64,000 nucleotides of DNA, from the NCBI GenBank assembly GCA_944349805.1, contig CALVNP010000055.1:1565-65564 (forward strand), given 5' to 3'. The DNA is from an uncultured Clostridia bacterium (lineage in GTDB: Bacteria; Bacillota; Clostridia; Christensenellales; UBA1242). The notes beneath the pieces were generated by a model. The model saw only the letters and a program-made list of their open reading frames with translations, did not search any database and had not been told where the DNA came from. Positions 13,792 through 27,950 of this stretch are shown here, piece after piece; position 1 is the stretch's first letter; every line of letters begins with the position of its first letter. A program made the translations under genes and the position numbers.

Positions 13792-15429
13792 GTGCATATG
13801 CAGAAGGTTATAAATGGCGCAGAATTAAGAAAAATGATAATAGGTGGAGCTAGCTTGCTTGAACAAAATAAAAAGCTTGTAGACTCTTTAAATGTTTTCC
13901 CTGTACCAGATGGTGACACAGGGACAAATATGTTTTTAACTATGAAATCAGCTGTTAACGAAGTTAACAACTGTTTGAATAACAATTTGGACAGTCTTTG
14001 TGAAGCATTTGCAAAGGGTGCTCTTCGTGGTGCAAGAGGTAATTCTGGGGTTATTACATCTCAGATTATTAAAGGCTTTTGTAGTGTGTTAAAAACAGCA
14101 ACAGAAGTAAATACAAAGGTTTTTGCAAAGGCAATTCAAGAAGGTGCAAACATTGCTTATAAGGCAGTTACAAAACCAAAAGAAGGCACAATTTTAACTG
14201 TTATAAGGGTTATGGCAGAGAGTGCTGTTGATGCTGCTAAAAGGAATTCAACATTTGAAAATTTCTTTAAAATTGTACTTGATAAGGGTGAAGAAATTTT
14301 ACAACAAACTCCTGAAATGTTGCCTGTGCTTAAAAAAGCTGGTGTTGTTGATGCTGGTGGAAGGGGACTTATAGTCATCTTTACAGGTTTTTATAAAGTT
14401 CTTTTGGGTGAAGAACTTGATTTTGTGTTTGAAGATGCTCCAATTCAGGCAACTGTGGAAGATGTTGTTCCGGACTTAAATAACATCCCTGAAATTGAAT
14501 TTGGTTATTGTACAGAATTTATGATAATCAATATGCATAAAAAGACTACGGAAGCAGATATTGATAAGCTTCGTGAAAAACTTATGCAGATAGGGGACTC
14601 TGTGCTTTGTATAGGGGATTTATTGCTTGTAAAGGTGCACGTTCATACAAATCAACCAAATGTTGCTCTTGGATATGCTCTTGAACTTGGTGAACTCTTC
14701 AATTTAAAAATTGAAAATATGAGGGAGCAAAATAGAGAACTTAAAAGAAAAGCACAGCAACAACAGGACCTTAAAGAACACGGAATGGTTGCCGTTGCTC
14801 CTGGAAAAGGCATTGCTGACTTGTTTAAGGATTTATATGTTGACCAGATCATAGAAGGTGGGCAAACAATGAACCCAAGTGCTGCCGATATAGCTAGCGC
14901 AGCAGACAAAATTCCAGCGAAGAATGTGTTTGTGTTCCCAAACAACAAGAATATAATTTTGGCAGCAGAACAAGCTAAGGGCTTGACAACAAAAAACCTG
15001 AGAGTTATTCCATCTAAGAGTGTTCCGGAAGGTATTTCATCAGCACTTGCTTTTAATCCAGAAGGTACTGTGGAAGAAAACGAAGAGGCAATGATTGCTT
15101 CACTTCAAAATGTAAAGTCTGGTTCTGTGACTTATGCAGTTAGAAGTACTCACGTTGATGGCTTTGACTTGTCTGTTGGGGAAATTATAGGTCTTGATGA
15201 TAAAGCTATTTTGTCAAAAGGAACACTTGTTGGTCCAACAACGGAAGCTTTGATAGAAAAATTAATAACAGATAGTGCAGTAAACATAACACTTTTTTAT
15301 GGTGAAGATATCAAGGAAGAAGAGGCATTAAACTTACAACAAAAACTTGCTGAGAAATATCCAGAATGTGAAGTTACAGCAATATATGGGGGACAACCTG
15401 TTTATTATTATATAATTTCAATAGAGTAA
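13792..15429 (+). CDS. DAK2-domain fusion protein (YloV homologue)
   Basis: N-terminal Dak2 signature LN.FPVPDGDTGTNM and a C-terminal DegV-like/uncharacterised domain. 545 aa, typical for YloV. Confidence 0.9.
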   Translation: MHMQKVINGAELRKMIIGGASLLEQNKKLVDSLNVFPVPDGDTGTNMFLTMKSAVNEVNNCLNNNLDSLCEAFAKGALRGARGNSGVITSQIIKGFCSVLKTATEVNTKVFAKAIQEGANIAYKAVTKPKEGTILTVIRVMAESAVDAAKRNSTFENFFKIVLDKGEEILQQTPEMLPVLKKAGVVDAGGRGLIVIFTGFYKVLLGEELDFVFEDAPIQATVEDVVPDLNNIPEIEFGYCTEFMIINMHKKTTEADIDKLREKLMQIGDSVLCIGDLLLVKVHVHTNQPNVALGYALELGELFNLKIENMREQNRELKRKAQQQQDLKEHGMVAVAPGKGIADLFKDLYVDQIIEGGQTMNPSAADIASAADKIPAKNVFVFPNNKNIILAAEQAKGLTTKNLRVIPSKSVPEGISSALAFNPEGTVEENEEAMIASLQNVKSGSVTYAVRSTHVDGFDLSVGEIIGLDDKAILSKGTLVGPTTEALIEKLITDSAVNITLFYGEDIKEEEALNLQQKLAEKYPECEVTAIYGGQPVYYYIISIE

Positions 15430-15533: not shown

Positions 15534-15572
15534 GTCCTCTTAGTTAAACGGATATAACAAGCCCCTCCTAAG
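15534..15572 (+). other. attL: 5' half of the host tRNA-Arg(CCT) gene, ending in the 8-bp core CTCCTAAG (15565-15572)
   Basis: GTCCTCT-TA-GTTAAACGGATATAAC-A-AGCCC-CTCCTAAG gives the acceptor 5' strand, D arm, 5' anticodon stem and anticodon loop. tRNA-like sequence stops abruptly after the core. Confidence 0.85.
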
Positions 15573-15655
15573 TATCGCATTGAACACAATAAAAATCGCT
15601 AAATCGCCCGAATTACGCATACTTTCAAACCAAACAAACAACCACAAAACACAAT

Positions 15656-15677
15656 TTGTACCCAAATTGTACCCAAA
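15656..15677 (+). repeat. Tandem 11-bp repeat TTGTACCCAAA x2 (candidate arm-type integrase sites, left end)
   Basis: A perfect tandem duplication lies about 85 bp inside attL. The same motif recurs near attR. Confidence 0.6.
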
Positions 15678-15717
15678 ACAAAAATTAACCCCAATAACAC
15701 AACAAAATCACTCATAT

Positions 15718-15794
15718 GTGGGTATAGCTCAGCTGGATAGAGCGTCCGCCTCCTAAGCGGAAGGTCTGCAGTTCAAATCTGCATACTCACACCA
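15718..15794 (+). tRNA. Element-borne tRNA-Arg (anticodon CCT), complete
   Basis: GTGGGTA-TA-GCTC-AGCTGGATA-GAGC-G-TCCGC-CTCCTAA-GCGGA-AGGTC-TGCAG-TTCAAAT-CTGCA-TACTCAC-A-CCA. 77 nt with a canonical cloverleaf and one G-U pair in the acceptor stem. Confidence 0.92.
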
Positions 15795-15798
15795 ATTT

Positions 15799-15822
15799 AA
15801 CATCCCCAATGGGGTGTTTTTT
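15799..15822 (+). terminator. Terminator after the element tRNA
   Basis: Stem ACATCCCC/GGGGTGT followed by T6. Confidence 0.7.
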
Positions 15823-15871
15823 ATAAAATATGATTTTAATCAAAATTGATTTATTTTTTTTATAAAAATGG

Positions 15872-15900
15872 TTGACAAATGAAAAATATTAATTTATAAT
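15872..15900 (+). promoter_or_regulatory. Consensus SigA promoter upstream of the XRE/ImmA pair
   Basis: TTGACA, exactly 17 nt, then TATAAT. It lies 26 nt upstream of the XRE start codon region. Confidence 0.7.
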
Positions 15901-15925
15901 GTAGGCATGATAAAGGAGAAAAATT

Positions 15926-16288
15926 ATGAAATATACACCTTTTGGAGAATTTTATAAAATACTTCGTATAAAAAATCATGAGAACTTAAATGACGCTAGT
16001 AATCTTTTAGATGTGTCACCAGCTTTTATTTCATCTGTAGAGTGTGGTAAAAGACCTGTTCCTGATGATTGGTATAATATTTTATGTAAACACTATTCTT
16101 TATCACAAACAGAACAGTCACAATTAAAAGACGCCATAGACGCATCTCAAACTATTGTCAAGTTGGGGTTACTTAATGCATCTCTTCAGCAAAGAAAAGT
16201 TGCTGTAGCATTTCAGCGATCATTTGATAATTTAAATGAAGAGGTAGCAAATGAATTATTAAAAATCCTTAATAAGGTTAAAAAGTAG
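15926..16288 (+). CDS. XRE-family helix-turn-helix regulator (ImmR/CapH-like)
   Basis: 120 aa. The HTH is LNDASNLLDVSPAFISSVECGKRPVP. RBS AAGGAG. Its stop overlaps the start of the downstream metallopeptidase gene (TAGTG). Confidence 0.8.
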   Translation: MKYTPFGEFYKILRIKNHENLNDASNLLDVSPAFISSVECGKRPVPDDWYNILCKHYSLSQTEQSQLKDAIDASQTIVKLGLLNASLQQRKVAVAFQRSFDNLNEEVANELLKILNKVKK

Positions 16289-16812
16289 TGGATTATAAAA
16301 CATATCCAATTAAACGACAATCATTGAGAGAAATTGCGTCTATATTAAGAAAAATATTTGGCTGTAAAAATAAGTATAAATTTAATGTTGTGGATTCTTT
16401 TGAAAGAATACATTCTTTATTCTCCAATATTTATACGGAAGTAGTTGAAGATGAAGAATTAGAAAGAAATATTCCAGCAAGATGTATTCCAGATTTTGCA
16501 AATAATGAATATTTGATACAAGTTAAAAATTCAGTTTATGAGGGTGCTTGCGATGAAATTGGAGGATATCGAGCTCACATTCTACACGAAATATGTCATG
16601 CCATACTTTGTATTTTAGGTTTCGTTCCAATTATGGATAGACAGTACAAAAATAATGAAATTAAATGTTATGAAAGCATGGAATGGCAGGCAAAAGCTTT
16701 GTGTGGAGAAATTCTAATGCCATATAATGAAACTCAAAATTTAAGTACTGAAGAAATTATGAGATTTTGTAAAGTTTCTAGAGATAGTGCAGAAAAAAGA
16801 AAAACTTATTAG
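16288..16812 (+). CDS. ImmA/IrrE-family zinc metallopeptidase (ImmA/CapP-like)
   Basis: 174 aa with HEXXH motif HEICH within AHILHEICHAIL. It is translationally coupled to the upstream XRE gene, the classic repressor/anti-repressor protease arrangement. Confidence 0.75.
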   Translation: MDYKTYPIKRQSLREIASILRKIFGCKNKYKFNVVDSFERIHSLFSNIYTEVVEDEELERNIPARCIPDFANNEYLIQVKNSVYEGACDEIGGYRAHILHEICHAILCILGFVPIMDRQYKNNEIKCYESMEWQAKALCGEILMPYNETQNLSTEEIMRFCKVSRDSAEKRKTY

Positions 16813-16944
16813 TTGATTTCAGGTATTACCTGTTTTCATAAAAAAAAGAACAAGTTCGCACCTTGTTCTAAAACGGATAAGGCTCCGTAATGCCGTTTGA
16901 AATATGTTCTAATTTCGTAACAATAATATTATAACATATTTTGT

Positions 16945-16976
16945 ATCGGTATGCAAGTCCTTGCGCCGATTTTTTT
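16945..16976 (+). terminator. Rho-independent terminator after the XRE/ImmA operon
   Basis: Hairpin ATCGG..GCAAG-TC-CTTGC..CCGAT followed by T6. Confidence 0.65.
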
Positions 16977-17018
16977 AAATTTACTAAAAAAATCGAGACT
17001 ACTTCAAGGAGGTGTTAA

Positions 17019-17237
17019 ATGGGAACACTGTACACACTTATTACCGGTATGAGTATAGTAGGTATCAAGGCATTAGATATATTCCTATCTTTTATATTTG
17101 ATTGCTTGTCATTTACTATTGCTTGGAAGATTGGTGGACTAGGTACGACTTCAAAAATGCGTGGCTTTTTACACTGGTCTAGTAGAATTGGTATATATAT
17201 TTTATTAGTAATCACAACAAAAAATATAATTTTATAG
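17019..17237 (+). CDS. Small 2-3 TM membrane protein, first gene of the CBASS-like operon
   Basis: 72 aa behind the very strong RBS AAGGAGGTG with 5-nt spacing. It is hydrophobic. There is only a faint resemblance to the N-terminal part of phage_holin_4-type holins. Confidence 0.5.
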   Translation: MGTLYTLITGMSIVGIKALDIFLSFIFDCLSFTIAWKIGGLGTTSKMRGFLHWSSRIGIYILLVITTKNIIL

Positions 17238-17243
17238 GAGACA

Positions 17244-18485
17244 ATGTTTATGGATAAATTTAAAAAAGAAGAACTAATGAATAAAATTGCGCATGCACTG
17301 GATATCACTCCTCAAATTTATAACGAATCGATAAGTGCTGTTCGTGGATTAAGTGCTTATATAAAAAATCAAATTAAAAATGTTGAGATTTATAAACAGG
17401 GTTCGTTTAAATTGGGCACAATAGTTAGACCATATTACAAAGATAAAGACGGCGAATTTGATATTGACTTAGTAGTACAATTTCAAGCGAGCAAAAATAA
17501 TATAAAACCTTCAACAATAAAACAAGCATTAAGATCATGTTTATCTTCTCAAAATTACAGGAACTTATTAGAAGAAGAAAAAAGAAGATGCTGGACTTTA
17601 CACTATCCTTCTAATACGTGTTCATTCCATGTTGATTTATTGCCATGTGTTGATGAATCATCAGAAGTTAAAAGCTCTATTGCTCCTGTACAATATAGAA
17701 ATACCTCTATTGCAATAACTGAAATTGAAGATAAAAAAAACAAACCTTATAATTATAAATGGATGACCAGTAATCCTAAAGGCTATGCTGAGTGGTTTGA
17801 TGATATCAATCAACGTGTTTATGGAGAAATAAAAAAACAAGATAGGCTCAGAGTTTTGAACGAGAATATAACAATGTTTGATTCTATTGATTCTGTTTCT
17901 GATGAATATACTAGAACTCCTTTGCAACAAGTAATACAAATATTAAAAAGACATCGTGATGTTATGTATTGCAACGATAGCGACAATGCTCCAATCTCTA
18001 TTATTATAACTACATTGGTTGGTAAGATTGTTGAAGAAAATCCAAAAGTATACAATACCACATATGATTTATTAAATTCTGTTATCGAAGGCCTAAATTT
18101 TTATTCTCAACTAACAATTGGTGGTATAACAACAGATTTTAGTGAGGATTTTAAGACCAAAAAATTAATTACTAAAAATATGCAAAACGGTAAACCTTAT
18201 TGGTGTATAAAAAATCCAGCAAATTCTCAAGAAAATTTAGCAAACAAATGGAATGAAAATCCAGAAAAAGCAACTGAATTTTTTAAATGGGTTCGTCAAG
18301 TAAAAAGTGATTTGATAGATATATTAGACTTTGAGCCAGAACAAATTAAGCAAAAATTAAAGTACTGTTTAGGAGAACGAATTAGTAACCAGGTTTTATA
18401 TGATTTTAATTTCAATAACATAGATAGTTCTAAATCACGCACATTAAATTTTAGTGATAGTACTCCTAAACCATATAGATGGTAG
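17244..18485 (+). CDS. CD-NTase / SMODS-family nucleotidyltransferase (CBASS cyclase candidate)
   Basis: Pol-beta-type NTase motifs QGSFKLGT...(13)...EFDIDLVV, with the third acidic residue in FHVDLLPC. The downstream LKRHRD and SIIITTL helices are typical of cGAS/DncV-like enzymes. RBS AGGAG. The second ATG at 17250 is better spaced from it. Confidence 0.7.
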   Translation: MFMDKFKKEELMNKIAHALDITPQIYNESISAVRGLSAYIKNQIKNVEIYKQGSFKLGTIVRPYYKDKDGEFDIDLVVQFQASKNNIKPSTIKQALRSCLSSQNYRNLLEEEKRRCWTLHYPSNTCSFHVDLLPCVDESSEVKSSIAPVQYRNTSIAITEIEDKKNKPYNYKWMTSNPKGYAEWFDDINQRVYGEIKKQDRLRVLNENITMFDSIDSVSDEYTRTPLQQVIQILKRHRDVMYCNDSDNAPISIIITTLVGKIVEENPKVYNTTYDLLNSVIEGLNFYSQLTIGGITTDFSEDFKTKKLITKNMQNGKPYWCIKNPANSQENLANKWNENPEKATEFFKWVRQVKSDLIDILDFEPEQIKQKLKYCLGERISNQVLYDFNFNNIDSSKSRTLNFSDSTPKPYRW

Positions 18486-18489
18486 CCTT

Positions 18490-19170
18490 ATGGATTTTGA
18501 TTTTTTTAGAGATGGGCTCGTATTATTTGATGAATATCAATTAACAAAGTTTGACAAATTTGAAACAATCTCTGGGATATACAACTTAGATGTGATAGTT
18601 AAAGATAAAGTTTATCAAGGGAAATTTGCAGTAATTATAAATATTGAAAATACAAAAAATTTTATTCCAGAAGTTTATTTACCAAATCTTTCTTTACCTT
18701 ACAAATTCGAGCATGTATACAAAGACAAAAACAATTTATGCTGTTTAGGATTAAACTATGAAATTGAGCTAACTTGGGGAGAAAAACGTAACTTTTATAA
18801 TTTTTTAACAAAGATCTTAGATCCTTTCTTAGTAAATTATTTAGAATACTGCCAAACTAAAAATTATATAAACGGTGATAGACCTCATGCAAAAGAAGGA
18901 TTAATTGAGTACTACTCTCAATTTTTTCCTAATGAAAACCACAATAAAATAATTCCTATTTTATTATATTGTTATCATAAAATTTCAAGAAACGAATTTG
19001 CAAAAGGTAATAACTTGTGCCCTTGTGGCAGCGGTAAAAATATTAGGCATTGTATTCATCAACAGAAAATTAGAGAATTTATTAATAATGCATTAAATAA
19101 TGCTTACTTAAAAAATGCGTTTCTAAACGATATGAAAAATTATATAGGAGACAAAAATGAGCAAAGGTAA
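18490..19170 (+). CDS. E2/UBC-like protein with C-terminal SEC-C zinc motif (Cap2-short-like candidate)
   Basis: The sequence shows a UBC-like layout. The beta-meander is GKFAVIINIENTKNFIPEVYLP. The catalytic-loop-like segment is EHVYKDKNNLCCLGL (H75, C84/C85). A helix TWGEKRNFYNFLTKILDPFL follows. The C-terminal CPCGSGKNIRHC is a SEC-C motif. The start is uncertain (ATG 18490 or GTG 18454). Confidence 0.5.
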   Translation: MDFDFFRDGLVLFDEYQLTKFDKFETISGIYNLDVIVKDKVYQGKFAVIINIENTKNFIPEVYLPNLSLPYKFEHVYKDKNNLCCLGLNYEIELTWGEKRNFYNFLTKILDPFLVNYLEYCQTKNYINGDRPHAKEGLIEYYSQFFPNENHNKIIPILLYCYHKISRNEFAKGNNLCPCGSGKNIRHCIHQQKIREFINNALNNAYLKNAFLNDMKNYIGDKNEQR

Positions 19171-20296
19171 AAATATTAACAAAGAAACAAGAAACTATTC
19201 AAAAGAAACAATAGCTTTACTTTATGGAAAAACTGCAGGTCATTGTACAATTTGTAATCGACCTTTGCAGTTTGACAATTACTCCCATAGTGATGTAAAC
19301 ATTTCAGAAAAAGCACACATTAAACCTTTTAGCGAATTAGGACCTCGCTCTTCAACTGAAGTTTTAACCACAGAAGAAAAAAACGGTTATGATAATTTAA
19401 TTTTGCTCTGTGGAGCATGTCATTCTACTATCGATAAAAAAGTTTTAGAAGGTGTATATACTGTAGACTGGCTGAAAGAGGAAAAAATACGAAAAGAAAA
19501 ACAAATACGCGAAGTGATGAAGTGTTTAACTCCAAAAGAAATATATTGCTTAAAGTTATTTAGCCCGATAGCTGATTCAAATTTTGATTATGATGATAAT
19601 TTGTTAAAAAGATTGTGCTACAAAAATGGTTTTCATGTAAATGAAACTTTAATTGATTTAGGAGATAATCTTAATATTGAAAATAAAAAAATAAATTTAA
19701 CTGTATTCAATCAACAAATAAAATCTAAAGTGAAATTATTAAATAATAATGGAGAAAATAATGAACTTTGTATATTTGCACTTGGACCACAATATTTGTT
19801 AATAAAATTAGGTTATGAATTATCCGATAAAATAGATGCACATATTTTTACAAAACATAGAAATGGATGGATTTATGATAATATCAATGAAAAGAAAAAT
19901 TACTTTTCTATAATTCGTCCTGTGAAAATTGAAAAAAATAACCAAGTGTCTATAATTGTTTCATCTAGCGCAGAAGTAAATCACGATAGAGTATATCATT
20001 GTTTAGGTAAAAATATAGATATCTGGGAATTAAAGGCAAATAATATAGGTATTGATAATATAAATTCAATAGAAGAAATAGTACAGTTTTCAATTCAATG
20101 TGTTACTATTATTGATAATATTGGCACTATATATGGTAAGGATAAAATAATTAATTTATTTCCTGCTATGTGTAATTCTTTGGCTGTTAAATTTGGACAA
20201 TCAATATTTCATAAAAGCCATAATAAAATTTTGATATATGATACTATTAAAGATAAAACAGGGGAAATAATAGAAAAACCCATTTTAAAAATTTAA
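19157..20296 (+). CDS. HNH endonuclease fused to a SAVED sensor domain (Cap5-like CBASS effector)
   Basis: The N-terminal HNH is CTICNRPL...EKAHIKPFS...NLILLCGACHSTID. The C-terminal ~230 aa contains two CARF-like repeats (ELCIFALGPQYLLIKLGYELSD and IINLFPAMCNSLAVKFGQSI) as in SAVED. RBS AGGAG. It overlaps the previous gene by 14 nt. Confidence 0.7.
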   Translation: MSKGKNINKETRNYSKETIALLYGKTAGHCTICNRPLQFDNYSHSDVNISEKAHIKPFSELGPRSSTEVLTTEEKNGYDNLILLCGACHSTIDKKVLEGVYTVDWLKEEKIRKEKQIREVMKCLTPKEIYCLKLFSPIADSNFDYDDNLLKRLCYKNGFHVNETLIDLGDNLNIENKKINLTVFNQQIKSKVKLLNNNGENNELCIFALGPQYLLIKLGYELSDKIDAHIFTKHRNGWIYDNINEKKNYFSIIRPVKIEKNNQVSIIVSSSAEVNHDRVYHCLGKNIDIWELKANNIGIDNINSIEEIVQFSIQCVTIIDNIGTIYGKDKIINLFPAMCNSLAVKFGQSIFHKSHNKILIYDTIKDKTGEIIEKPILKI

Positions 20297-20337
20297 AAAA
20301 TATCCACCACCAATAAATTTGGTAGTGGATTTTTTTA
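20296..20337. terminator. Bidirectional terminator between the Cap5-like gene and the integrase gene
   Basis: A 12-bp stem ATCCACCACCAA/TTGGTAGTGGAT with one mismatch, with an A-run on one side and a T-run on the other. Confidence 0.75.
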
Positions 20338-21729
20338 TCCAAAAATTTTATTGATTTTTTCTGAGGCGTGGATGTCGCTATTTTGCAAAAAGTGAGAATA
20401 AAAGTCGCTTGTCGTGCTTGCTCTGGCGTGGCCTGCACGCGTTGAAACCGTCTTCATATCAACTCCAGCATTGAGTTGCAATGTGATATTGGTATGGCGC
20501 AGCGAGTGTAGTGTAACCTTAGGCAAACCCGCTTTATTCAAAATCTTATGTAGCCAAACTATGTATAGCCCATGTGATATTGGCTCACCAGAATCTGTTG
20601 AGAACAATCTATCAATCGTTTCCCATCTATCGCCAAGATATGACTTATGTTCTTGCCACCAAGTTTGGTATTCCTTTAAATATGTGATCAAGTTCTCTGG
20701 CATTGAGATCGTTCTTTTGGACGTTTCTGTCTTTGGCTCTTTTGTGAATATCCCAAAACCAGGTAATTCTTGCACTGAGCGGCATATTCTCATTGTGCCA
20801 TTTTCAAAGTCAATATCTTTCCACTCAAGGCCACCAAGTTCACCGCGTCTAAGCCCCATATACAAAATTGTTAAAATTGCAATGCGCCAACGCGGATTTA
20901 TTTCTTCTTCTCGCAAATAGCGTTCCAATTCAATAGCCTCTTTATCATTAAGGATTTTTATTTCCTTTTTATATCCCTGTATAGGAGCAATGTATTCTTG
21001 GGATGCAAAATTGTGTTCAATTAAGCCTTGACGCTTTGCACTCGCGAGTATTGTCGCAAGCGTGCGCTTTAGCTTTAATATTGTTTCTTTTGCATATGGA
21101 TGACTATCTGTTTGAATTTTGAAATAATCATCAAATTTGAGATTTAAAATTTCACATAACTTTTGTGCATTTGAAACTAATATGCCATGGCCTGAAAGTG
21201 CTGAAAAGTATGTTGACCTAGAAAAGTCGTTTTCTCGCAGTTTCTTGCACAAATCTACCGAATGCGATCTTACAAATAGTTGTAAATCTTTAATAAGGAA
21301 CGCTCGTTCCATTTGCACTTTATGGCTGCAAAGCTTGTCCAAATATCCTTGTACTGTTATTGGCCTGATGTCTGCAAGTTTGATGTTCCCAAAGTATTCT
21401 TCAAACTTTCGCAGTGCATCTCTGCCTTTAATAAAGTAGTTGACTGAACGCGTCATTTTAATCGTTTCAAGCCACTTGTATGCATATTCCATAAAGGTGA
21501 TAGAATCGTCAACCATAATGTCGCCATTCAGTTGCTTTCTAAACTTGTCTTCAAATTCAATTTCAAGGCGTTTAAGTTCCTTTTCACATTGTCTCTCAGT
21601 CAGTTCTGCAGGCTTGCGCCATGTCATAACCTTAGCCTCAAATTTACCTGTTCGCAAGTTTTTTGCTTTGACCTGTATGCGATAAGATATATCACCATTT
21701 TGCAAAACATTCTTTTTTATGCATCCCAT
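20335..21729 (-). CDS. Tyrosine site-specific integrase
   Basis: 464 aa. Box I is LYMGLRRGELGGLEWKDI. Box II is LHSLRHTNIT...AGHARASTTSDFYSH, giving the R..HxxR..Y catalytic set. The N-terminal arm-binding-type domain is GDISYRIQVK. RBS AGGAGG. Confidence 0.92.
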   Translation of the reverse strand: MGCIKKNVLQNGDISYRIQVKAKNLRTGKFEAKVMTWRKPAELTERQCEKELKRLEIEFEDKFRKQLNGDIMVDDSITFMEYAYKWLETIKMTRSVNYFIKGRDALRKFEEYFGNIKLADIRPITVQGYLDKLCSHKVQMERAFLIKDLQLFVRSHSVDLCKKLRENDFSRSTYFSALSGHGILVSNAQKLCEILNLKFDDYFKIQTDSHPYAKETILKLKRTLATILASAKRQGLIEHNFASQEYIAPIQGYKKEIKILNDKEAIELERYLREEEINPRWRIAILTILYMGLRRGELGGLEWKDIDFENGTMRICRSVQELPGFGIFTKEPKTETSKRTISMPENLITYLKEYQTWWQEHKSYLGDRWETIDRLFSTDSGEPISHGLYIVWLHKILNKAGLPKVTLHSLRHTNITLQLNAGVDMKTVSTRAGHARASTTSDFYSHFLQNSDIHASEKINKIFG

Positions 21730-21740
21730 AATTGCACCTC

Positions 21741-21959
21741 CTAATTTATTTTTATTTGTTCCATTGGTAATGCGTATTCTTTACTTTGAAGGAAAGCAAG
21801 TAGTGAATCGAAGTCCACCATAACTTTACTTCCTGTTTTTACTGAACGAATTTTCTCGTTGTATGCAAGCATCCTAATGAAGTAAGCAGTGATACTAGAA
21901 TCAGGATCTTCATGCTTAATCATTTTTACAGCCTCGTTTATTGTTCTTATTCTTGTCAT
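21741..21959 (-). CDS. Small Xis-like / excisionase-type DNA-binding protein
   Basis: 72 aa (MTRIRTINEAVKMIK...ITAYFIRMLAYNEKI...) lying immediately upstream of int in the same direction. RBS GGAGG lies 6 nt before ATG 21959. The longer 120-aa ORF-track form is rejected. Confidence 0.6.
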   Translation of the reverse strand: MTRIRTINEAVKMIKHEDPDSSITAYFIRMLAYNEKIRSVKTGSKVMVDFDSLLAFLQSKEYALPMEQIKIN

Positions 21960-22072
21960 TGAAACCTCCTCGTGCTGTCCTTGACTGGAGCTTTTTGGTA
22001 GCAGTGATGTTACCTCTAAATTTATTAAAAGTCCAGACAATTCGCAGCTAATCTTAAAACTTATTTCTAAAT

Positions 22073-22106
22073 AGCGCGGCATTTGCCCTAAACAGCGCGG
22101 CATTTG
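22073..22106. promoter_or_regulatory. Direct repeat AGCGCGGCATTTG x2, spaced 21 bp start to start (candidate operator of the xis-int promoter)
   Basis: Two perfect 13-bp GC-rich copies (22073-22085 and 22094-22106) sit in an AT-rich region about 115-150 bp upstream of the xis-like start. Confidence 0.5.
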
Positions 22107-22311: not shown

Positions 22312-23088
22312 TTATTTTTTTGATTTTTGATTTCGCGAACTTTTGTGTGAAAGCCCGCGTCCGCTCACAAGCCTAATCCCGTAGAGATTTAGAGCCCCTC
22401 CCTCAGAAAGTGGTGGAAGTTCACTTATCATTTCAGTTAACACTTCCTTCACAACATTTTCAAAAGGATTATTTGGTCTGCGCTGTAATTCATCTGCTGA
22501 TGGTACAGTAAGAAGAATTAACTTGTCCGATACACTATCAGTTTTTGAATCTTTAAAATGCATATCAAAAGCATATTCACTTATTAGCGGTTTAATCTTT
22601 TGCTTTAATTTTAAAACAAACAAGTTCCCATCCAGATCCTTCACGCGCGCGTTTCTAGAAATAATTTTAATTTTATTTTTATAATATCTCACTATTACAG
22701 GTACTGCTTGTCCGGCTGGTAGGCAAAGAATGTCTTGTCTATCATCAGGTGTCAGCATTGGGCTACCGTCCAAACCCCAAAAAAGAATCTCAGAATTTAT
22801 GTAAATGTAAAGGCGGTTGTTGTTTTCTAAATGCCTTTTTATTATTCCTTTTTCTTCTAAGCCAACAAGAATTCTGCGAGTTTGGCGCTCCTTTCTTCTT
22901 AGGATAGGTAGGTCATCAAGCATCTTTTTGTATGTAATCCAACAATACTTCCTCCTGTTAATGAATTTTGTAACAGCGTTGCCGCTATCAAAGAACTTGA
23001 TTAAATAATCAAGTAGCAATGCATCTTGCATTGTAAGTCCAAGTCCGACCATAGTTTTTTGATCAAAGTCGAAAATGTATTCTCTCAT
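22312..23088 (-). CDS. Winged-helix replication-initiator / replisome-organizer-like protein
   Basis: 258 aa. The N-terminal ~100 aa (LTMQDALLLDYLIKF...WITYKKMLDDLPIL..KERQTRRILVGLEEKGIIKR) looks like a DnaD/replisome-organizer-type wHTH. It has a basic C-terminal tail and is flanked on both sides by repeat fields. RBS AGGAGG. Confidence 0.45.
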   Translation of the reverse strand: MREYIFDFDQKTMVGLGLTMQDALLLDYLIKFFDSGNAVTKFINRRKYCWITYKKMLDDLPILRRKERQTRRILVGLEEKGIIKRHLENNNRLYIYINSEILFWGLDGSPMLTPDDRQDILCLPAGQAVPVIVRYYKNKIKIISRNARVKDLDGNLFVLKLKQKIKPLISEYAFDMHFKDSKTDSVSDKLILLTVPSADELQRRPNNPFENVVKEVLTEMISELPPLSEGGALNLYGIRLVSGRGLSHKSSRNQKSKK

Positions 23089-24382: not shown

Positions 24383-24389
24383 ATTTTAC

Positions 24390-24734
24390 CTACACATTAA
24401 CCCAAATTATCGCACCCTTAGGGTGTTTATATTTTATTGGCTTTTCAAATCTTTGAGCGTTAGCTAAGACCCATGCGTATGTATTTTTATAGGGCAATTT
24501 ATTTACATCTTGTATACAATGTTTCATTGATTCTTTTTGAAACATATCCATAGACAAATGGATGGAATCAATTAATTCACAACTACCTACAATTAAACCT
24601 GAGCCGCTTTGAATCAAAAAAATTTTACCTCTAATTTTTGTGTTAGAACCTCTAATTTCCCAAGTTTTCTTTCTGTTAAGGATATAATCAACCCACGGTT
24701 GTTTTATAATTAAAGCTTTCATATAATTCGCCAA
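24390..24734 (-). CDS. ASCH-domain (PUA-like fold) protein
   Basis: ALIIKQPWVDYILNRKKTWEIRGSNTKIRGKIFL is the characteristic ASCH N-terminal strand pattern. The gene abuts the endonuclease stop codon. The start is TTG 24734 or ATG 24722. Confidence 0.65.
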   Translation of the reverse strand: MANYMKALIIKQPWVDYILNRKKTWEIRGSNTKIRGKIFLIQSGSGLIVGSCELIDSIHLSMDMFQKESMKHCIQDVNKLPYKNTYAWVLANAQRFEKPIKYKHPKGAIIWVNV

Positions 24735-25502
24735 CTATTTGTAGATTTTAATAGTTCCATATGTAAGAAGTTTTTGTAAAATAATTCTAAATCCCGTTCC
24801 ATGATCATGCGTTTTACCTTTGTTTTTACCAGAAGCATAGACACCAATTCTAATATCAATAAATAAATCTCCATTTTCTATGGCTGATAACATTTTTTCA
24901 ATTGTTAACCCTTCTAAAATGACCATCTGTTCATATCGAACGAAATGGTAACCACCTTCATCTTTTTCTTCGCCATATAGGATTGCAATTTTATTCAATT
25001 TTTTTGATAATGCATTTTCTAGAACAGAAAAGTCCCAATACACATTTTTCCCTATACTTTCACTTTCTAAAATAACATCGTCAACTGTTCTTTTTACGAC
25101 TAATCTAAGTTTTTTGGAAGCCCGATCTACATTTACTTTAAAGCAGTGGCCACCTCTATGAGAATTAAATTTATTGCCACTAACAGTTGTATTAAGAACC
25201 TTTTTCCCTGAATCTGGTTCTATCACACCATAACTTTCTCTAAGATATGTATTTACCCCTTTGGGGGATGATGGTGATTTAGAAAAAAGCGACATGAGAC
25301 TAGACGTAATTATTCTGTGTGATTTTAATTCAATTCCTTTAAAATCTGCCTCTGGTTTGTTGTCTTCTTTTTTACCAATTAAGTCTTCAAAGGCATTCCC
25401 TAAACACTGGTCTCCATGCCTTTTTGTTTCTATCCATCCCAACTTCTTTATTGAATAGAAAAGGTCAACCAATTCTTGCTCTGCTTGTAAATAATTATCC
25501 AT
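24735..25502 (-). CDS. Type II restriction endonuclease, MvaI/BcnI family
   Basis: GNAFEDLIGKKEDNKPEADFKGIELKS and the C-terminal ...KTHDHGTGFRI....L parallel BcnI (GQILERQFGVQENN...DLGEFELKG and ...GPHDRGPHLRI). ATG 25502 sits behind RBS GAGG. Confidence 0.7.
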   Translation of the reverse strand: MDNYLQAEQELVDLFYSIKKLGWIETKRHGDQCLGNAFEDLIGKKEDNKPEADFKGIELKSHRIITSSLMSLFSKSPSSPKGVNTYLRESYGVIEPDSGKKVLNTTVSGNKFNSHRGGHCFKVNVDRASKKLRLVVKRTVDDVILESESIGKNVYWDFSVLENALSKKLNKIAILYGEEKDEGGYHFVRYEQMVILEGLTIEKMLSAIENGDLFIDIRIGVYASGKNKGKTHDHGTGFRIILQKLLTYGTIKIYK

Positions 25503-25584
25503 ATATACCTCACTATGACCAATTATAGCAAAAAAAATGATGCAACACAAATCTTGCATCATTTTTATTATACTTTTTTAAAAA

Positions 25585-26835
25585 TTATTTAATCCTTTTC
25601 ATTACAACAATATATTCTTTAGTCATTGTTGAAATTTGGCCTCCAACTCTATTAGATGGGGATGCTTTTGAAGGCATACGCTTATTCAAGATATCTCTTA
25701 CATGAGTAACAATATGTTCATATCCTAATTTTTCAAACATTTTATAAGTAATAACATCTAATGGCAATTCAATATTTCTAACTCTACGATTACCAACAAC
25801 ATACACAACATATCCTCCAATTTTAACTGTCTGAGATATCGCCTCAATCGTTTCAAGATAGTCTTTATAAAAAGATATGACAGATCTATATCGGTCTCCA
25901 TTATTATTTAAATCGTATTTCTTTATTTTATCTATAGCATCATCTAATTCTTCTATATTAAAATGATATGCATTTATTTTTCGACCACCCATTAGTTTTG
26001 AATCAACTTGACCAGCATCTGTAAAACCAAGCCATTCATTTGAGAGTCTCGAAAATTGGCCATAGGCTACTGTCGTGTGGCTATCTCCATATGGAGGAGA
26101 TGTTATAATTAAATCAAATTTGTCTTGTAAATGATATTTTTGTATACACATGTTTGAGTTGTCATAAAATAATTTAACATTAGTATTATATTTAACATCC
26201 GCATTTTCTAAAATTTCTATATTTCTATCAACAATTTGTTCAAATAACTTAAATGCGTCAGGATTAAAATTTTCTAGCGATTTTTTTGACATTCTATATA
26301 ATTTAAATTCGCCATTTCTTGTTTCAGAAACACATCTAACCACTTCAGAAAAACACATTTTAAAAAACTTCAACGAAGAATCATCAAAAGATTCAAAAAC
26401 AAATTTTTTAATTTTTGCTAATTCAATAATACTTTGTTCTTTAAACCAAGAATGAAGAATTGAAAAACTAGGTATTTCACTAGGTTCTATATTTAGTATT
26501 TTGTAATTTTCAAACTTTTTAAATCTTTCTTTAATATTTTCTATTACTATAGGTTTTGTTTTTACTTCTGTAATTAACAAAGCCAAAGGATTTAGATCAA
26601 AACCATATGCTTCTTTAGCTCCATATAATTGAGCTTCCGCAATAGTTGTGCCAGATCCAACATAAGGATCTAGAAAAATTGTATCTGGACCTTTCCCATA
26701 TTCTTTTAACATTTCTCTTGCAATTAAAGGCATCATCATTGCTGGATAAGGATGAAGTCCATGCACATATTCTTTCATGCTGTGTTCTTTAAAGTTCCAT
26801 TTTTCATCATATTGTCTCTTATAATTGTTTTTCAT
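25585..26835 (-). CDS. DNA methyltransferase (amino-MTase with SPPY motif; N4-cytosine or N6-adenine)
   Basis: SAM motif I is LDPYVGSGTT near residue 56. Catalytic motif IV is ITSPPYGD near residue 245. The order I...TRD...IV indicates the alpha class. Confidence 0.85.
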   Translation of the reverse strand: MKNNYKRQYDEKWNFKEHSMKEYVHGLHPYPAMMMPLIAREMLKEYGKGPDTIFLDPYVGSGTTIAEAQLYGAKEAYGFDLNPLALLITEVKTKPIVIENIKERFKKFENYKILNIEPSEIPSFSILHSWFKEQSIIELAKIKKFVFESFDDSSLKFFKMCFSEVVRCVSETRNGEFKLYRMSKKSLENFNPDAFKLFEQIVDRNIEILENADVKYNTNVKLFYDNSNMCIQKYHLQDKFDLIITSPPYGDSHTTVAYGQFSRLSNEWLGFTDAGQVDSKLMGGRKINAYHFNIEELDDAIDKIKKYDLNNNGDRYRSVISFYKDYLETIEAISQTVKIGGYVVYVVGNRRVRNIELPLDVITYKMFEKLGYEHIVTHVRDILNKRMPSKASPSNRVGGQISTMTKEYIVVMKRIK

Positions 26836-27028
26836 TTTTACCTCTTATTATTCCTGATTCCACAAATAATTTATATAATTTTTTTCTGTATTTCGTTGAA
26901 GGATTAAATTTTCCTTTTTCCCATCGATTTACGGTTGTTTTAGAGACGTTTAAAATTTGAGCCAAATCATTTTGTGTTAGGAAATTATTTTCACGATATA
27001 CAAATATATTCTTTTGAAAATCAATCAT
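26819..27028 (-). CDS. Controller (C) protein-like XRE HTH regulator of the R-M operon
   Basis: 69 aa starting at ATG 27028 (MIDFQKNIF...LTQNDLAQILNVSKTTVNRWEKGK). It overlaps the MTase start by 17 nt. Confidence 0.7.
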   Translation of the reverse strand: MIDFQKNIFVYRENNFLTQNDLAQILNVSKTTVNRWEKGKFNPSTKYRKKLYKLFVESGIIRGKNEKQL

Positions 27029-27053
27029 TATATTTACCTCAATATATGACATT

Positions 27054-27083
27054 ATTATAACATAAAGTTGACATAAAATCAAC
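27054..27083 (-). promoter_or_regulatory. Promoter with overlapping inverted repeat (C-box-like operator) for the C-M-R operon
   Basis: The minus strand reads TTGATT, 17 nt, TATAAT. The inverted repeat GTTGA-N7-TCAAC (27067-27083) overlaps the -35 element. Confidence 0.5.
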
Positions 27084-27165
27084 ATTTTAAATTTATTTTT
27101 TTTAGAACTACTTGGCTTTTTAATAAAAACGTTTTATAGTGTCACACAACGCAAGGAGGTGTAGT

Positions 27166-27906: not shown

Positions 27907-27950
27907 CTCCTAAGGGCTAGTTAGGGGTTCGATTCCCTTAGGGGACGCCA
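27907..27950 (+). other. attR: 8-bp core CTCCTAAG plus the 3' half of the host tRNA-Arg(CCT) gene
   Basis: CTCCTAAG-GGCT-AGTT-AGGGG-TTCGATT-CCCTT-AGGGGAC-G-CCA. The 3' acceptor strand pairs with GTCCTCT at 15534-15540. Confidence 0.85.

What the first reader, a model, noticed from the sequence alone, without database searches (positions are those of the whole stretch)
17019..20296. CBASS-like operon: CD-NTase, E2-like/SEC-C protein and HNH-SAVED (Cap5-like) effector
The 413-aa protein has the GS…(D/E)xD plus downstream D catalytic pattern of cGAS/DncV-like nucleotidyltransferases (QGSFKLGT, EFDIDLVV, FHVDLLPC). The third gene fuses an HNH nuclease (CTICN…HIKPFS…NLILLCGACHSTID) to a two-repeat SAVED-like C-terminal domain, which is the Cap5 architecture. 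The genes overlap or abut and share one terminator. The module is a minimal CBASS with an accessory gene that is neither a full Cap2 (E1-E2) plus Cap3 pair nor HORMA/TRIP13. It most resembles the E2-only (type II-short) class.
Basis: partly seen in the sequence, partly recalled or inferred. Interest (0 to 1): 0.7.

Follow-up and report, generated by a model that had tools for sequence, protein, structure and literature searches.

The report
E2-type CBASS anti-phage operon
This is an intact anti-phage alarm system of a known kind (type II-short CBASS: a signal-making enzyme, an E2-like regulator and a DNA-cutting effector), carried on a small mobile island. It is an ordinary new member of its class, with a few unstudied details.

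Summary

- **Core genes.** Window 17250-20296 (+) encodes three genes:
  - a clade-G CD-NTase (CdnG; PADLOC cyclase 1e-93; the model's best PDB structural matches are SmCdnG and BdCdnG);
  - a 226-aa E2-like protein with a C-terminal SEC-C zinc knuckle (PADLOC E2, 2e-31);
  - an HNH-SAVED Cap5 nuclease (PADLOC 3.5e-69; best solved relative is L. lactis Cap5).
- **Closest studied system.** This architecture matches the type II (short) CdnG/third-gene/Cap5 systems of Lactococcus and Asticcacaulis, which signal with 3'2'-cGAMP.
- **Additions.**
  - The locus has six genes: a CapH/CapP-like HTH plus M78 peptidase pair and a conserved 72-aa hydrophobic ORF lie upstream.
  - The whole locus sits on a 12.3-kb integrase island. 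The island splits a host tRNA-Arg(CCT) gene, carries its own tRNA-Arg copy and also carries a type II restriction-modification system.
- **Unstudied details.**
  - The CdnG tail ends in PKPYRW and has no glycine equivalent to the one essential in the Serratia E2-CBASS.
  - This KP[Y/W] tail co-occurs across phyla with the long SEC-C E2-like family, in which one His-Cys-His set is invariant.

Verdict: new member of a known kind, modest interest.

The parts
15534..15572 (+). 5' half of a host tRNA-Arg(CCT) gene, ending in the 8-bp core CTCCTAAG (15565-15572). This is the left island junction (attL).
   Evidence: Joining 15534-15564 to 27907-27950 gives an intact 75-nt tRNA-Arg(CCT) by ARAGORN.
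15718..15794 (+). Island-borne tRNA-Arg(CCT), a different sequence from the split host gene.
   Evidence: ARAGORN; Rfam tRNA 66.5 bits.
15872..15900 (+). Promoter-like site matching the sigma-70 consensus 12 of 12 (TTGACA-17-TATAAT), upstream of the HTH gene.
   Evidence: This is a consensus match only; function is inferred.
15926..16288 (+). CapH-like HTH (XRE-type) regulator, 120 aa.
   Evidence: The window protein gives weak hits: Pfam HTH_31 at 1.4e-3 and PADLOC capH at 2.6e-3. Homologues next to related CBASS loci hit capH at 1e-4 and 2.8e-6. They are 31-36% identical to the window protein.
16288..16812 (+). CapP/ImmA-like M78 zinc metallopeptidase, 174 aa, HEICH motif, peptidase domain only.
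   Evidence: The window protein gives weak hits: Pfam Peptidase_M78 at 8e-4 and PADLOC capP at 0.028. Homologues in L003 and L007 hit capP at 3e-9 and 8.5e-17, covering profile positions 43-151 of 242.
16813..17018 (+). Structured 206-nt spacer. It holds a perfect palindrome AGAACAAG-N7-CTTGTTCT (16847-16869), an inverted repeat over a promoter-like site (16897-16941), and a hairpin plus T-run about 40 nt before the next start codon.
   Evidence: RNA fold -55.4 kcal/mol, z = -4.6. The palindrome is identical in L001-L004 and unique in the window. No Rfam family matches.
17019..17237 (+). 72-aa hydrophobic protein of unknown function, with strong RBS AAGGAGGTG.
   Evidence: It is called as a gene in L001-L004. 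It is 71% identical to the L003 copy, with 26 synonymous-only versus 20 non-synonymous codon changes. Only five short homologues exist among 1.8 billion representatives. It has no Pfam, PADLOC or PHROG hit.
17250..18485 (+). CdnG, a clade-G cGAS/DncV-like nucleotidyltransferase, 411 aa. Active site G51-S52, D71-x-D73, D129. C-terminal tail ...TPKPYRW.
   Evidence: Family, sequence and structure evidence is.
18490..19170 (+). E2-like protein, 226 aa, with invariant H75, C85 and H133 and a C-terminal SEC-C-type zinc knuckle (C177-P-C179-G-S-G...C188-x-H190).
   Evidence: PADLOC E2 at 2e-31. Invariant residues across 59 sequences from many phyla. hhalign to short SmE2-like proteins gives E 4.6e-5 with the His and Cys in register. 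The SEC-C motif is below Pfam's threshold (0.013) and aligns with SecA C-terminal peptides. The model has pLDDT 80.8 and its only meaningful fold match is the TSG101 UEV domain (prob 0.93, E 0.065).
19157..20296 (+). Cap5 effector, 379 aa: N-terminal HNH endonuclease (C30xxC33, H54, C85xxC88-H89) and C-terminal SAVED sensor (185-366).
   Evidence: Pfam SAVED at 4.6e-28, plus HNH_2 at 6.4e-5 (23.2 bits, above the 21-bit cut-off) and HNH at 3.2e-4 (21.2 bits, just under the 21.4-bit cut-off). PADLOC effector at 3.5e-69 and SAVED_HNH at 2.9e-68. PDB 7RWM (LlCap5) at 3.6e-28 and 7RWK (AsCap5) at 6e-22.
20302..20337 (.). Bidirectional intrinsic terminator between cap5 and the convergent integrase gene.
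20335..21729 (-). Tyrosine integrase of the island, 464 aa.
   Evidence: Pfam Phage_integrase at 2e-19; PHROG 1 integrase at 3.6e-55.
22312..23088 (-). Replication-initiator-like protein of the island, 258 aa.
   Evidence: PHROG 428 at 5e-8.
24390..27085 (-). Second defence module of the island: ASCH protein, MvaI/BcnI-type restriction endonuclease, type II DNA methyltransferase and an HTH controller.
   Evidence: Pfam ASCH at 4.6e-7, MvaI_BcnI at 7.6e-46 and HTH_3 at 1.3e-8. PADLOC REase_II at 5e-61 and MTase_II at 1e-107.
27907..27950 (+). 3' half of the split host tRNA-Arg(CCT), beginning with the repeated core CTCCTAAG (27907-27914). This is the right island junction (attR).

Best explanation
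The locus is a functional type II-short ('E2-CBASS') anti-phage system. It is cargo on a 12.3-kb integrase island inserted in a tRNA-Arg gene.

**Proposed working (inferred from homology to studied systems).**
1. In uninfected cells the CapH-like HTH protein keeps transcription low.
2. Stress or DNA damage activates the M78 peptidase, which cleaves the repressor.
3. On phage infection CdnG is switched on. The E2-like cysteine enzyme acts on the CdnG C-terminal tail to control that switch.
4. CdnG makes a cyclic dinucleotide, most likely 3'2'-cGAMP.
5. The SAVED domain of Cap5 binds the nucleotide, Cap5 oligomerises, and its HNH domains degrade DNA indiscriminately. The infected cell dies before phage are released.

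**What is shown here:** gene content, family membership, catalytic motifs, fold of CdnG, conservation of the gene order, and the island borders.

**What is inferred:** the nucleotide product, the covalent E2 chemistry, the regulation, and the defence phenotype.
For: **The three core genes belong to the expected families.**
- CdnG: PADLOC cyclase 1e-93; Pfam SMODS and DncV-like NTase above their cut-offs.
- CdnG's closest solved sequences are the 9woo cGAMP synthase, SmCdnG and BdCdnG.
- The CdnG model (pLDDT 92.2) gives Foldseek top hits 8yjy, 8hsb and 7ljn (E 5e-17 to 5e-15).
- E2-like protein: PADLOC E2 at 2e-31. H75, C85 and H133 are invariant in 59 sequences from many phyla.
- That triad has spacing similar to SmE2 H87, C101 and H152, which are functionally required. 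Profile-profile alignment to short SmE2-like proteins puts the His and Cys in register.
- Cap5: SAVED plus HNH, aligned over nearly its full length to LlCap5 and AsCap5.

**Gene order is conserved.**
- CdnG, then a 224-240-aa E2-like gene, then a 369-378-aa Cap5 recur in relatives with about 55-97% CdnG identity.
- These sit in unrelated defence islands next to type I R-M, GmrSD, Wadjet or BREX.

**Literature on relatives.**
- CdnG enzymes of Serratia, Asticcacaulis, E. coli and Vibrio make 3'2'-cGAMP, and this nucleotide activates Cap5.
- The E2-only CBASS of Serratia defends against phage T4 and needs its E2.

**The genes look functional.** All ORFs are intact and end at a terminator. Synonymous changes outnumber non-synonymous ones in the small ORF.
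Against: **No experiment exists on this locus.** The remaining points are departures from the studied models.

- **No tail glycine.** The CdnG tail (PKPYRW) has no Gly in its last 36 residues. In Serratia the tail Gly is essential, and G406R abolishes both linkage and defence. The Serratia E2 mechanism therefore cannot be transferred residue for residue.
- **E2 fold only weakly supported.** Foldseek gave no match with E below 1e-3; the only meaningful match was the TSG101 UEV domain at E 0.065. No solved E2 is found by sequence.
- **Weak regulator hits.** The window's own HTH and M78 proteins hit capH and capP only weakly (2.6e-3 and 0.028).
- **Regulator architecture differs.** They are co-directional with the operon rather than divergent, and the peptidase lacks the GAF domain of CapP.
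- **No visible activation loop.** The CdnG model shows no long disordered loop of the kind reported for clade G enzymes.
Confidence: 0.85

Rival explanations
1. The operon is a CBASS, but the E2-like/SEC-C protein does not work like the Serratia E2, which forms a Gly-Cys thioester and then a Gly-Lys isopeptide. Instead it recognises the [K/R]-P-[Y/W] tail. It then either only clips the tail (protease-type control) or links a non-glycine residue, with the zinc knuckle providing an extra contact or sensor.
For: **Tail composition.**
- The window tail is PKPYRW.
- In 117 relatives the residue after KP[Y/W] is R 52, G 28, K 13, S 8.
- G406R inactivates the Serratia system.

**Two tail classes track two E2 classes.**
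- KP[Y/W] tails go with long (about 215-310 aa) E2-like proteins, most of which carry a SEC-C-type motif.
- PKxxF[Y/H]G tails go with short (148-171 aa) SmE2-like proteins.

**Other support.**
- A cyclase of a different fold (Pycsar-type) carries an RPW tail next to a SEC-C E2-like gene.
- The zinc-knuckle cysteines are invariant.
Against: - The His-Cys-His set is conserved as in SmE2, and the two families are distantly homologous.
- Glycine is still the second most common residue at that position.
- I could not obtain the SmCdnG tail sequence, so the residue equivalence rests on the positions quoted in the paper.
- Nothing biochemical is known for this family.
Confidence: 0.3
2. The HTH and M78 genes are the island's own ImmR/ImmA-type switch. 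They control excision and transfer of the mobile element, not expression of the CBASS genes.
For: - The pair lies at the edge of an integrase island.
- The peptidase is ImmA-sized (174 aa) and lacks the GAF domain of CapP.
- The genes are co-directional with the operon and separated from it by a 206-nt spacer containing terminator-like hairpins.
- The window proteins' matches to capH and capP are weak.
Against: - Homologous pairs sit directly upstream of, and overlap, cdnG in L006 and L007. No integrase is called on the stretches of those loci that were read.
- Those homologues hit capH and capP significantly.
- In L001-L004 the pair, the spacer palindrome and the CBASS genes travel together.
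- The integrase and replication genes lie 3.5 kb or more away on the other strand.
Confidence: 0.2
3. The 413-aa protein is a non-signalling nucleotidyltransferase (for example an MNT/KNT-type antitoxin), and the locus is a toxin-antitoxin or other module rather than a CBASS.
For: None was found.
Against: - All family hits are CD-NTase or SMODS.
- The top 50 Foldseek hits are all CD-NTases.
- The partner genes are the canonical E2 and HNH-SAVED effector.
Confidence: 0.01

Closest known systems
CdnG / third-gene / Cap5 type II (short) CBASS of Lactococcus lactis and Asticcacaulis sp. (Fatma et al. 2021, PMC8568899)
   Same: - The three-gene architecture is the same.
- LlCap5 (7RWM) is the best solved match to the window's Cap5 (3.6e-28).
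- That paper describes the third gene as a conserved protein of unknown function without a Pfam family. The window's middle gene likewise has no Pfam hit above threshold.
- The signal in those systems is 3'2'-cGAMP.
   Different: - Sequence identity is low; the Cap5 alignment to 7RWM covers nearly the full length but scores only 101 bits.
- The window adds an HTH/M78 pair and a 72-aa ORF, and sits on an integrase island.
- I did not have the Lactococcus CdnG or third-gene sequences, so their tail and E2-like family were not compared directly.
Serratia marcescens E2-CBASS: SmCdnG and SmE2 (Yan et al., bioRxiv 10.1101/2022.05.25.493364; Xiao et al. 2026, PMC12948482)
   Same: - It pairs a clade-G CD-NTase with a stand-alone E2 and has no E1 or JAB.
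- The best PDB structural match for the window's CdnG model is SmCdnG.
- The E2 His-Cys-His arrangement is comparable.
   Different: - SmE2 is about 160 aa without a SEC-C zinc knuckle. The window's E2-like protein is 226 aa with one and is not detectable against SmE2 by sequence search.
- The SmCdnG tail is PKxxxYGE with an essential Gly. The window tail is PKPYRW.
- The Serratia effector is 2TM-SAVED plus an exonuclease, not Cap5.
- The C-terminal helix plus three-stranded sheet of SmCdnG is not evident in the model. Here the last 27 or so residues are of low confidence.
E. coli type II CBASS: CdnG, Cap2, Cap3 and Cap5 (Hobbs & Kranzusch 2026, PMC12991175)
   Same: It has the same CdnG enzyme clade and the same Cap5 effector, and signals with 3'2'-cGAMP.
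   Different: - It uses a full E1-E2 fusion (Cap2) and a JAB peptidase (Cap3), both absent here.
- Its protease-sensing activation loop is not apparent in the window's model.
CapH/CapP regulators of CBASS (Lau et al. 2022, bioRxiv 10.1101/2022.04.27.489752) and ImmR/ImmA, DdrO/IrrE
   Same: - An XRE-type HTH protein is paired with an HExxH M78 peptidase directly upstream of a CBASS operon.
- Homologues in sister loci match the capH and capP profiles.
   Different: - The genes are co-directional with the operon rather than divergent.
- The peptidase is 174 aa and lacks the linker and GAF domains.
- The window's own profile matches are weak.

Membership tests
CBASS type II-short (E2-CBASS) | CD-NTase with the GS...DxD...D active site | tested here: met
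   Pfam SMODS at 4.1e-10 and DncV-like NTase at 2.3e-10, both above cut-off; PADLOC cyclase at 1e-93. G51, S52, D73 and D129 are invariant and D71 is at least 90% conserved.
CBASS type II-short (E2-CBASS) | Stand-alone E2-like gene next to the CD-NTase, with no E1, JAB, HORMA or TRIP13 | tested here: met
   PADLOC E2 PDLC00872 at 2e-31 and four further E2 models. No such accessory genes occur among the ORFs of 15.9-20.3 kb.
CBASS type II-short (E2-CBASS) | Effector with a cyclic-nucleotide sensor domain in the same operon | tested here: met
   HNH-SAVED protein; Pfam SAVED at 4.6e-28; PADLOC effector at 3.5e-69.
CBASS type II-short (E2-CBASS) | Conserved glycine at the CD-NTase C-terminal tail, the residue linked to the E2 in Serratia | tested here: not met
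   The tail is ...TPKPYRW with no Gly in the last 36 residues. In 117 relatives the position after KP[Y/W] is R 52, G 28, K 13. Equivalence to Sm G406 is inferred from the residue numbers given in the paper.
CBASS type II-short (E2-CBASS) | Covalent CD-NTase-E2 adduct and phage defence | not testable with these tools
   Needs co-expression with SDS-PAGE or mass spectrometry, and plaque assays.
CD-NTase clade G (CdnG) | Groups with characterised CdnG enzymes rather than other clades | tested here: met
   The best solved sequence matches after 9woo are SmCdnG and BdCdnG. Foldseek ranks 1-6 are SmCdnG and BdCdnG, ahead of CdnB, DncV and CdnD. No phylogenetic tree was built.
CD-NTase clade G (CdnG) | Product is 3'2'-cGAMP | not testable with these tools
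   Inferred from Serratia, Asticcacaulis, E. coli and Vibrio CdnG.
Cap5 | N-terminal HNH nuclease with catalytic His and zinc-binding cysteines, fused to a C-terminal SAVED domain | tested here: met
   Pfam HNH_2 above its cut-off (23.2 vs 21 bits), HNH just below (21.2 vs 21.4 bits), and SAVED at 4.6e-28. PADLOC SAVED_HNH at 2.9e-68. Alignment to 7RWM spans residues 5-349, with AHIK and LLC..H conserved.
Ubiquitin-conjugating (UBC/E2) fold | Structural match to solved E2 or UEV domains, with the catalytic Cys after an HPN-like His | tested here: inconclusive
   - The model has pLDDT 80.8.
- Foldseek gives no hit with E below 1e-3. The best meaningful hit is the TSG101 UEV domain (prob 0.93, TMt 0.43).
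- H75 and C85 are invariant.
- hhalign to short CBASS E2s gives prob 68%, E 4.6e-5.
- A sister protein (L090) hits the Cap2 E2 region at 2.7e-7.
CapH/CapP regulator pair | HTH repressor plus HExxH M78 peptidase adjacent to CBASS | tested here: met
   HTH_31 and Peptidase_M78 give sub-threshold hits; the HEICH motif is present. Homologous pairs in L003, L006 and L007 hit capH and capP at 1e-4 to 8.5e-17.
CapH/CapP regulator pair | Divergent orientation sharing the CBASS promoter; CapP with linker and GAF domains | tested here: not met
   The genes are co-directional. The peptidase is 174 aa and covers only profile positions about 43-151 of 242. The definition is from Lau et al..

The most novel reading that the evidence does not exclude
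The long E2-like/SEC-C family is a distinct regulatory module. It reads a [K/R]-P-[Y/W]-x-x tail instead of a C-terminal glycine, so it uses chemistry or recognition different from ubiquitin-like Gly conjugation. The tail-plus-E2 module is portable between unrelated cyclases (CD-NTases and Pycsar-type cyclases). The conserved 72-aa membrane protein would be a further, undescribed CBASS accessory component.
Probability: 0.25. Interest if true: 0.6.

Novelty: new member of a known kind. Interest (0 to 1): 0.3.

Why it matters
**As it stands.** This is one more E2-type CBASS; several hundred are catalogued. It adds little beyond an example from a low-G+C, apparently spore-forming Bacillota genome.

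**Where it could be useful.**
- Its E2-like protein belongs to the long SEC-C-containing family. I found no biochemical or structural study of that family.
- Its partner enzyme lacks the tail glycine that the only studied E2-CBASS depends on.
- A compact, intact operon like this one would be a reasonable test case for how that family controls a cGAS-like enzyme.

**The island.** It combines two defence systems and its own tRNA on 12.3 kb. It is a tidy example of how defence genes move.

Tried and rejected
**E2-like protein.**
- Sequence and profile searches against PDB chains found only the SecA and YchJ SEC-C peptides, and no E2.
- Foldseek of the E2 model against PDB put spurious CorA hits (TM about 0.2) at the top. 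Only weak UEV matches followed, so the fold could not be confirmed.
- The word-indexed homologue search found only 12 relatives, even with a profile. I built the wider family from ORFs of fetched loci instead.
- A first hhalign run was spoiled because I included C-terminal domains of 510-567-aa CdnGs. Those are not E2 and are probably AGS-C-type domains. I repeated it with four genuine short E2s.

**CdnG tail.** Two attempts to read the SmCdnG C-terminal residues from PDB alignments failed, because the alignments stopped before the tail. Equivalence therefore rests on the residue numbers quoted in the papers.

**Source organism.** The GTDB representative scan did not contain the window's own genome; the best hit was 55% identical.

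**Island DNA.** It has no near match in plasmids. In phage records it has only a 56-nt match, inside the island's tRNA gene. I found no close relative among sequenced phages or plasmids.

**RNA.** Rfam finds no known RNA family in the leader.

**Rejected.** I considered and rejected a non-signalling NTase, and a remnant or pseudogene state (all ORFs are intact and catalytic residues are conserved).

Full report
**1. The observation**

The + strand between 17019 and 20296 carries four tightly packed ORFs:
- a 72-aa ORF at 17019-17237;
- a 413-aa ORF at 17244-18485;
- a 238-aa ORF at 18454-19170;
- a 379-aa ORF at 19157-20296.

Gene calls in near-identical public contigs start the second gene at the ATG at 17250 (411 aa, MDKF...). 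They start the third just after its stop, which corresponds to the ATG at 18490 in the window (226 aa, MDFDFF...).

They fall on invariant columns of a 114-sequence alignment: G51, S52, D73 and D129, with D71 conserved in at least 90%.

The operon ends at a hairpin (20302-20330) flanked by an A-run and a T-run. This bidirectional terminator is shared with a convergent integrase gene.

In a 30% G+C sequence, ORFs of this length with profile E-values of 1e-93, 2e-31 and 3.5e-69 are not chance.

**2. What the three core genes are**

*The CD-NTase.*
- It passes Pfam's thresholds for SMODS and the DncV-like NTase domain.
- It matches PADLOC cyclase models end to end.
- Its nearest solved relatives by sequence are a cGAMP synthase (9woo), Serratia SmCdnG (8hsb) and Bradyrhizobium BdCdnG (7ljn).
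- An AlphaFold model built on 114 homologues is confident (pLDDT 92.2, pTM 0.90).
- Foldseek ranks SmCdnG and BdCdnG first (E 5e-17 to 5e-15, TM 0.65-0.78), ahead of CdnB, DncV and CdnD.
- It is therefore a clade-G CD-NTase.

*The effector.*
- It has an HNH domain. Pfam HNH_2 is above its cut-off; HNH is just under.
- It has a SAVED domain at 185-366 (Pfam 4.6e-28, NCBIfam 2.5e-31).
- It matches PADLOC 'SAVED_HNH' and 'endonuclease effector' models full length.
- It aligns over residues 5-349 with LlCap5 (7RWM) and over 18-365 with AsCap5 (7RWK). It is a Cap5.

*The middle gene.*
- It matches seven PADLOC E2 or E1-E2 models (best 2e-31).
- It has no Pfam family. Only a sub-threshold SEC-C motif is found, and this aligns with the zinc-binding C-terminal peptide of SecA.

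**3. The E2-like protein in more detail**

I collected 59 distinct homologues from loci in many phyla.
- H75, C85, H133 and G137 are invariant, as are the zinc-knuckle residues C177, C179 and C188. H190 is 94% conserved (numbering of the 226-aa protein).
- In the Serratia E2, H87 and C101 are needed for tail processing and linkage, and H152 for the pH-dependent bond conversion. The spacing there is His-14-Cys-51-His. Here it is His-10-Cys-48-His.
- A profile-profile comparison with four short (148-171 aa) SmE2-like proteins from other CdnG loci gives E 4.6e-5 (probability 68%). The His and Cys align in register.
- Sister proteins also touch the short-E2 profile and the E2 region of Cap2 profiles.
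- The AlphaFold model (pLDDT 80.8) gives no significant Foldseek hit. The only meaningful matches are UEV (E2-variant) domains at probability 0.8-0.9.

I conclude that this is a divergent E2-like cysteine enzyme extended by a zinc knuckle. The fold assignment is only weakly supported by structure comparison.

**4. Surroundings: a six-gene locus**

*The regulator pair.*
- Upstream and co-directional lie a 120-aa HTH protein (15926-16288) and a 174-aa M78 metallopeptidase with an HEICH motif (16288-16812).
- They are preceded by a 12/12 sigma-70 consensus site (15872-15900).
- Their own matches to PADLOC capH and capP are weak (2.6e-3 and 0.028).
- Homologous pairs are 31-36% identical and sit directly upstream of related CdnG-E2-Cap5 operons. 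Those hit capH at 1e-4 to 3e-6 and capP at 3e-9 to 8.5e-17.
- In L006 and L007 the pair accompanies the CBASS genes, and no integrase is called on the stretches read. This argues that the pair regulates CBASS rather than island excision.
- Unlike canonical CapH/CapP, the genes are co-directional and the peptidase has no GAF domain.

*The spacer.* A 206-nt spacer follows the peptidase gene.
- It folds unusually stably (z = -4.6).
- It contains a perfect 8+7+8 palindrome at 16847-16869. This is identical in loci whose flanking proteins are only 34-68% identical, and it is unique in the window.
- It has an inverted repeat over a promoter-like site.
- It has a hairpin plus T-run just before the next ribosome-binding site.
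- I take these as candidate operator and/or attenuator elements, but this is inference. No Rfam family matches.

*The 72-aa ORF.*
- It has a strong Shine-Dalgarno sequence and two hydrophobic stretches.
- It is conserved only in the closest loci.
- Synonymous-only codon changes outnumber non-synonymous ones, 26 to 20.
- An exhaustive search of 1.8 billion representatives found five short homologues.
- No library has a family for it. Its role is unknown.

**5. A mobile defence island**

A host tRNA-Arg(CCT) gene is split.
- Its 5' half ends at 15572 and its 3' half starts at 27907. The 8-bp anticodon-loop core CTCCTAAG is repeated at both junctions.
- Joining the halves restores a 75-nt tRNA by ARAGORN.

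The 12.3-kb insert carries the following:
- its own, different tRNA-Arg(CCT) at 15718-15794;
- the CBASS locus;
- a tyrosine integrase;
- a replication-initiator-like gene;
- an ASCH protein;
- an MvaI/BcnI-type endonuclease with its methyltransferase and an HTH controller.

A TTGTACCCAAA-type repeat lies near both ends.

Related CdnG-E2-Cap5 operons lie in other defence islands, beside type I R-M, GmrSD, Wadjet or BREX.

Compared with the 97%-identical CdnG locus L001, the regulators, the small ORF and CdnG are 94-97% identical. E2 and Cap5 are only 72-73% identical, so a recombination breakpoint lies at the cdnG/E2 border.

**6. Mechanism**

By homology I expect the following:
- CdnG makes 3'2'-cGAMP, the product reported for Serratia, Asticcacaulis, E. 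coli and Vibrio CdnG.
- The SAVED domain of Cap5 binds it, and Cap5 oligomerises and degrades DNA.
- The E2-like enzyme acts on the CdnG C-terminal tail to set its activity, as SmE2 does.
- The HTH/M78 pair raises expression under stress, as CapH/CapP do.

None of this is shown for this locus.

**7. Where it departs from the studied model**

In Serratia the CdnG tail is P400-K401-x-x-x-Y405-G406-E407. G406 is the linked residue, and G406R, V or L abolish linkage.

The window's tail is T-P-K-P-Y-R-W, with no Gly in the last 36 residues.
- Among 117 relatives with a [K/R/Q]P[Y/W/F/H] motif, the next residue is R 52, G 28, K 13, S 8. Two residues usually follow the aromatic.
- Across the fetched loci, almost every CdnG with a [K/R]P[Y/W] tail (57 of 58) has a long E2-like gene next door, and most of those carry a SEC-C-type motif.
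- CdnGs with PKHNFHG or HTFYG tails have short SmE2-like genes instead.
- On a Chryseobacterium plasmid, a Pycsar-type cyclase of unrelated fold ends in ...NRPWLKRS and is followed by a SEC-C E2-like gene. A 2026 preprint already notes E2-like genes beside some Pycsar-like cyclases.

The tail motif thus looks like the recognition element of this E2-like family. The glycine rule does not obviously hold. I could not read the SmCdnG tail sequence directly, so the equivalence is inferred from published residue numbers.

Two further differences appear in the CdnG model:
- It shows neither the long disordered activation loop reported for clade G nor an ordered C-terminal three-stranded sheet after residue 384.
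- Its last 27 or so residues are of low confidence.

**8. Comparison with what is known, and novelty**

The closest described system is the CdnG/third-gene/Cap5 'type II (short)' CBASS of Lactococcus lactis and Asticcacaulis. There the third gene was left uncharacterised and noted to lack a Pfam family.

E2-only CBASS is an established class with hundreds of members. PADLOC already holds profiles for the long E2-like proteins, although RefSeq annotates them as hypothetical or 'SEC-C metal-binding' proteins.

The locus is therefore a new member of a known kind. What remains unstudied, as far as the searched literature shows, is:
- the biochemistry of the long SEC-C E2-like family and its non-glycine tail;
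- the 72-aa ORF;
- the co-directional, GAF-less CapP-like regulator.

**9. Verdict**

- Observation: confirmed.
- Interpretation: supported.
- Confidence that this is a functional E2-type CdnG-Cap5 CBASS: 0.85.
- Interest: 0.3. A specialist would not be surprised by the system itself. The tail/E2 mismatch is a worthwhile but modest lead.

Noticed in passing
window 15534-15572 and 27907-27950; island 15573-27906: A 12.3-kb integrase island is inserted in the anticodon loop of a host tRNA-Arg(CCT) gene, with the 8-bp core CTCCTAAG repeated at both junctions. Joining the halves restores an intact tRNA. The island carries its own, different tRNA-Arg(CCT) at 15718-15794, which presumably replaces the gene it destroys.
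   Followed up: yes
window 24390-27085 (- strand): The same island carries a second defence module: an ASCH protein, an MvaI/BcnI-type type II restriction endonuclease, its methyltransferase and an HTH controller gene.
   Followed up: partly
window 17019-17237: A conserved 72-aa hydrophobic ORF with a strong RBS lies immediately upstream of cdnG. It occurs only in the closest loci (L001-L004), matches no known family and shows a codon-change pattern consistent with purifying selection.
   Followed up: partly
window 16813-17018: The spacer between the M78 gene and the small ORF is unusually structured (z = -4.6). It holds a 23-nt perfect palindrome (16847-16869) that is identical in loci whose flanking proteins are only 34-68% identical, and a hairpin plus T-run about 40 nt before the start codon. 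This is a candidate operator or attenuator; no Rfam family matches.
   Followed up: partly
L091 (Chryseobacterium sp. plasmid pA2BH1, NZ_MN657149.1), locus 1928-4049: A Pycsar-type operon (TM effector plus an adenylate/guanylate-cyclase-domain protein) is followed by a SEC-C E2-like protein of the same family as the window's. The cyclase ends in ...NRPWLKRS, the same tail motif as the CdnGs. An ImmA/IrrE peptidase, a small protein and a sigma-70 factor lie divergently upstream.
   Followed up: partly
L001 versus window (genes hth to cap5): The locus is mosaic. HTH, M78, the small ORF and CdnG are 94-97% identical between the two loci, but E2 and Cap5 are only 72-73% identical. This indicates a recombination breakpoint at the cdnG/E2 border, with E2 and Cap5 exchanged as a unit.
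   Followed up: partly
L034, L040, L043, L045, L048 and others (CdnG homologues of 510-567 aa): Many proteobacterial, planctomycete and other CdnG homologues lack a neighbouring E2-like gene. Instead they carry a C-terminal extension of about 150 aa ending in ...VARSGEFVVRIV. It is not E2-like by hhalign and may be an AGS-C-type sensor domain.
   Followed up: no
window 15653-15676 and 27761-27784: The direct repeat AATTTGTACCCAAAT(T/A)GT(A/G)CCCAA lies about 80 nt inside the left island end and about 125 nt inside the right end. These may be arm-type integrase binding sites.
   Followed up: no
window 28073-28483 and 13792-15429: The flanking host genes include SpoVAC/SpoVAEB and a FakA/DAK2-type fatty-acid kinase subunit. 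Together with 30% G+C this suggests a spore-forming Bacillota host. The genome is not among the GTDB representatives searched.
   Followed up: no
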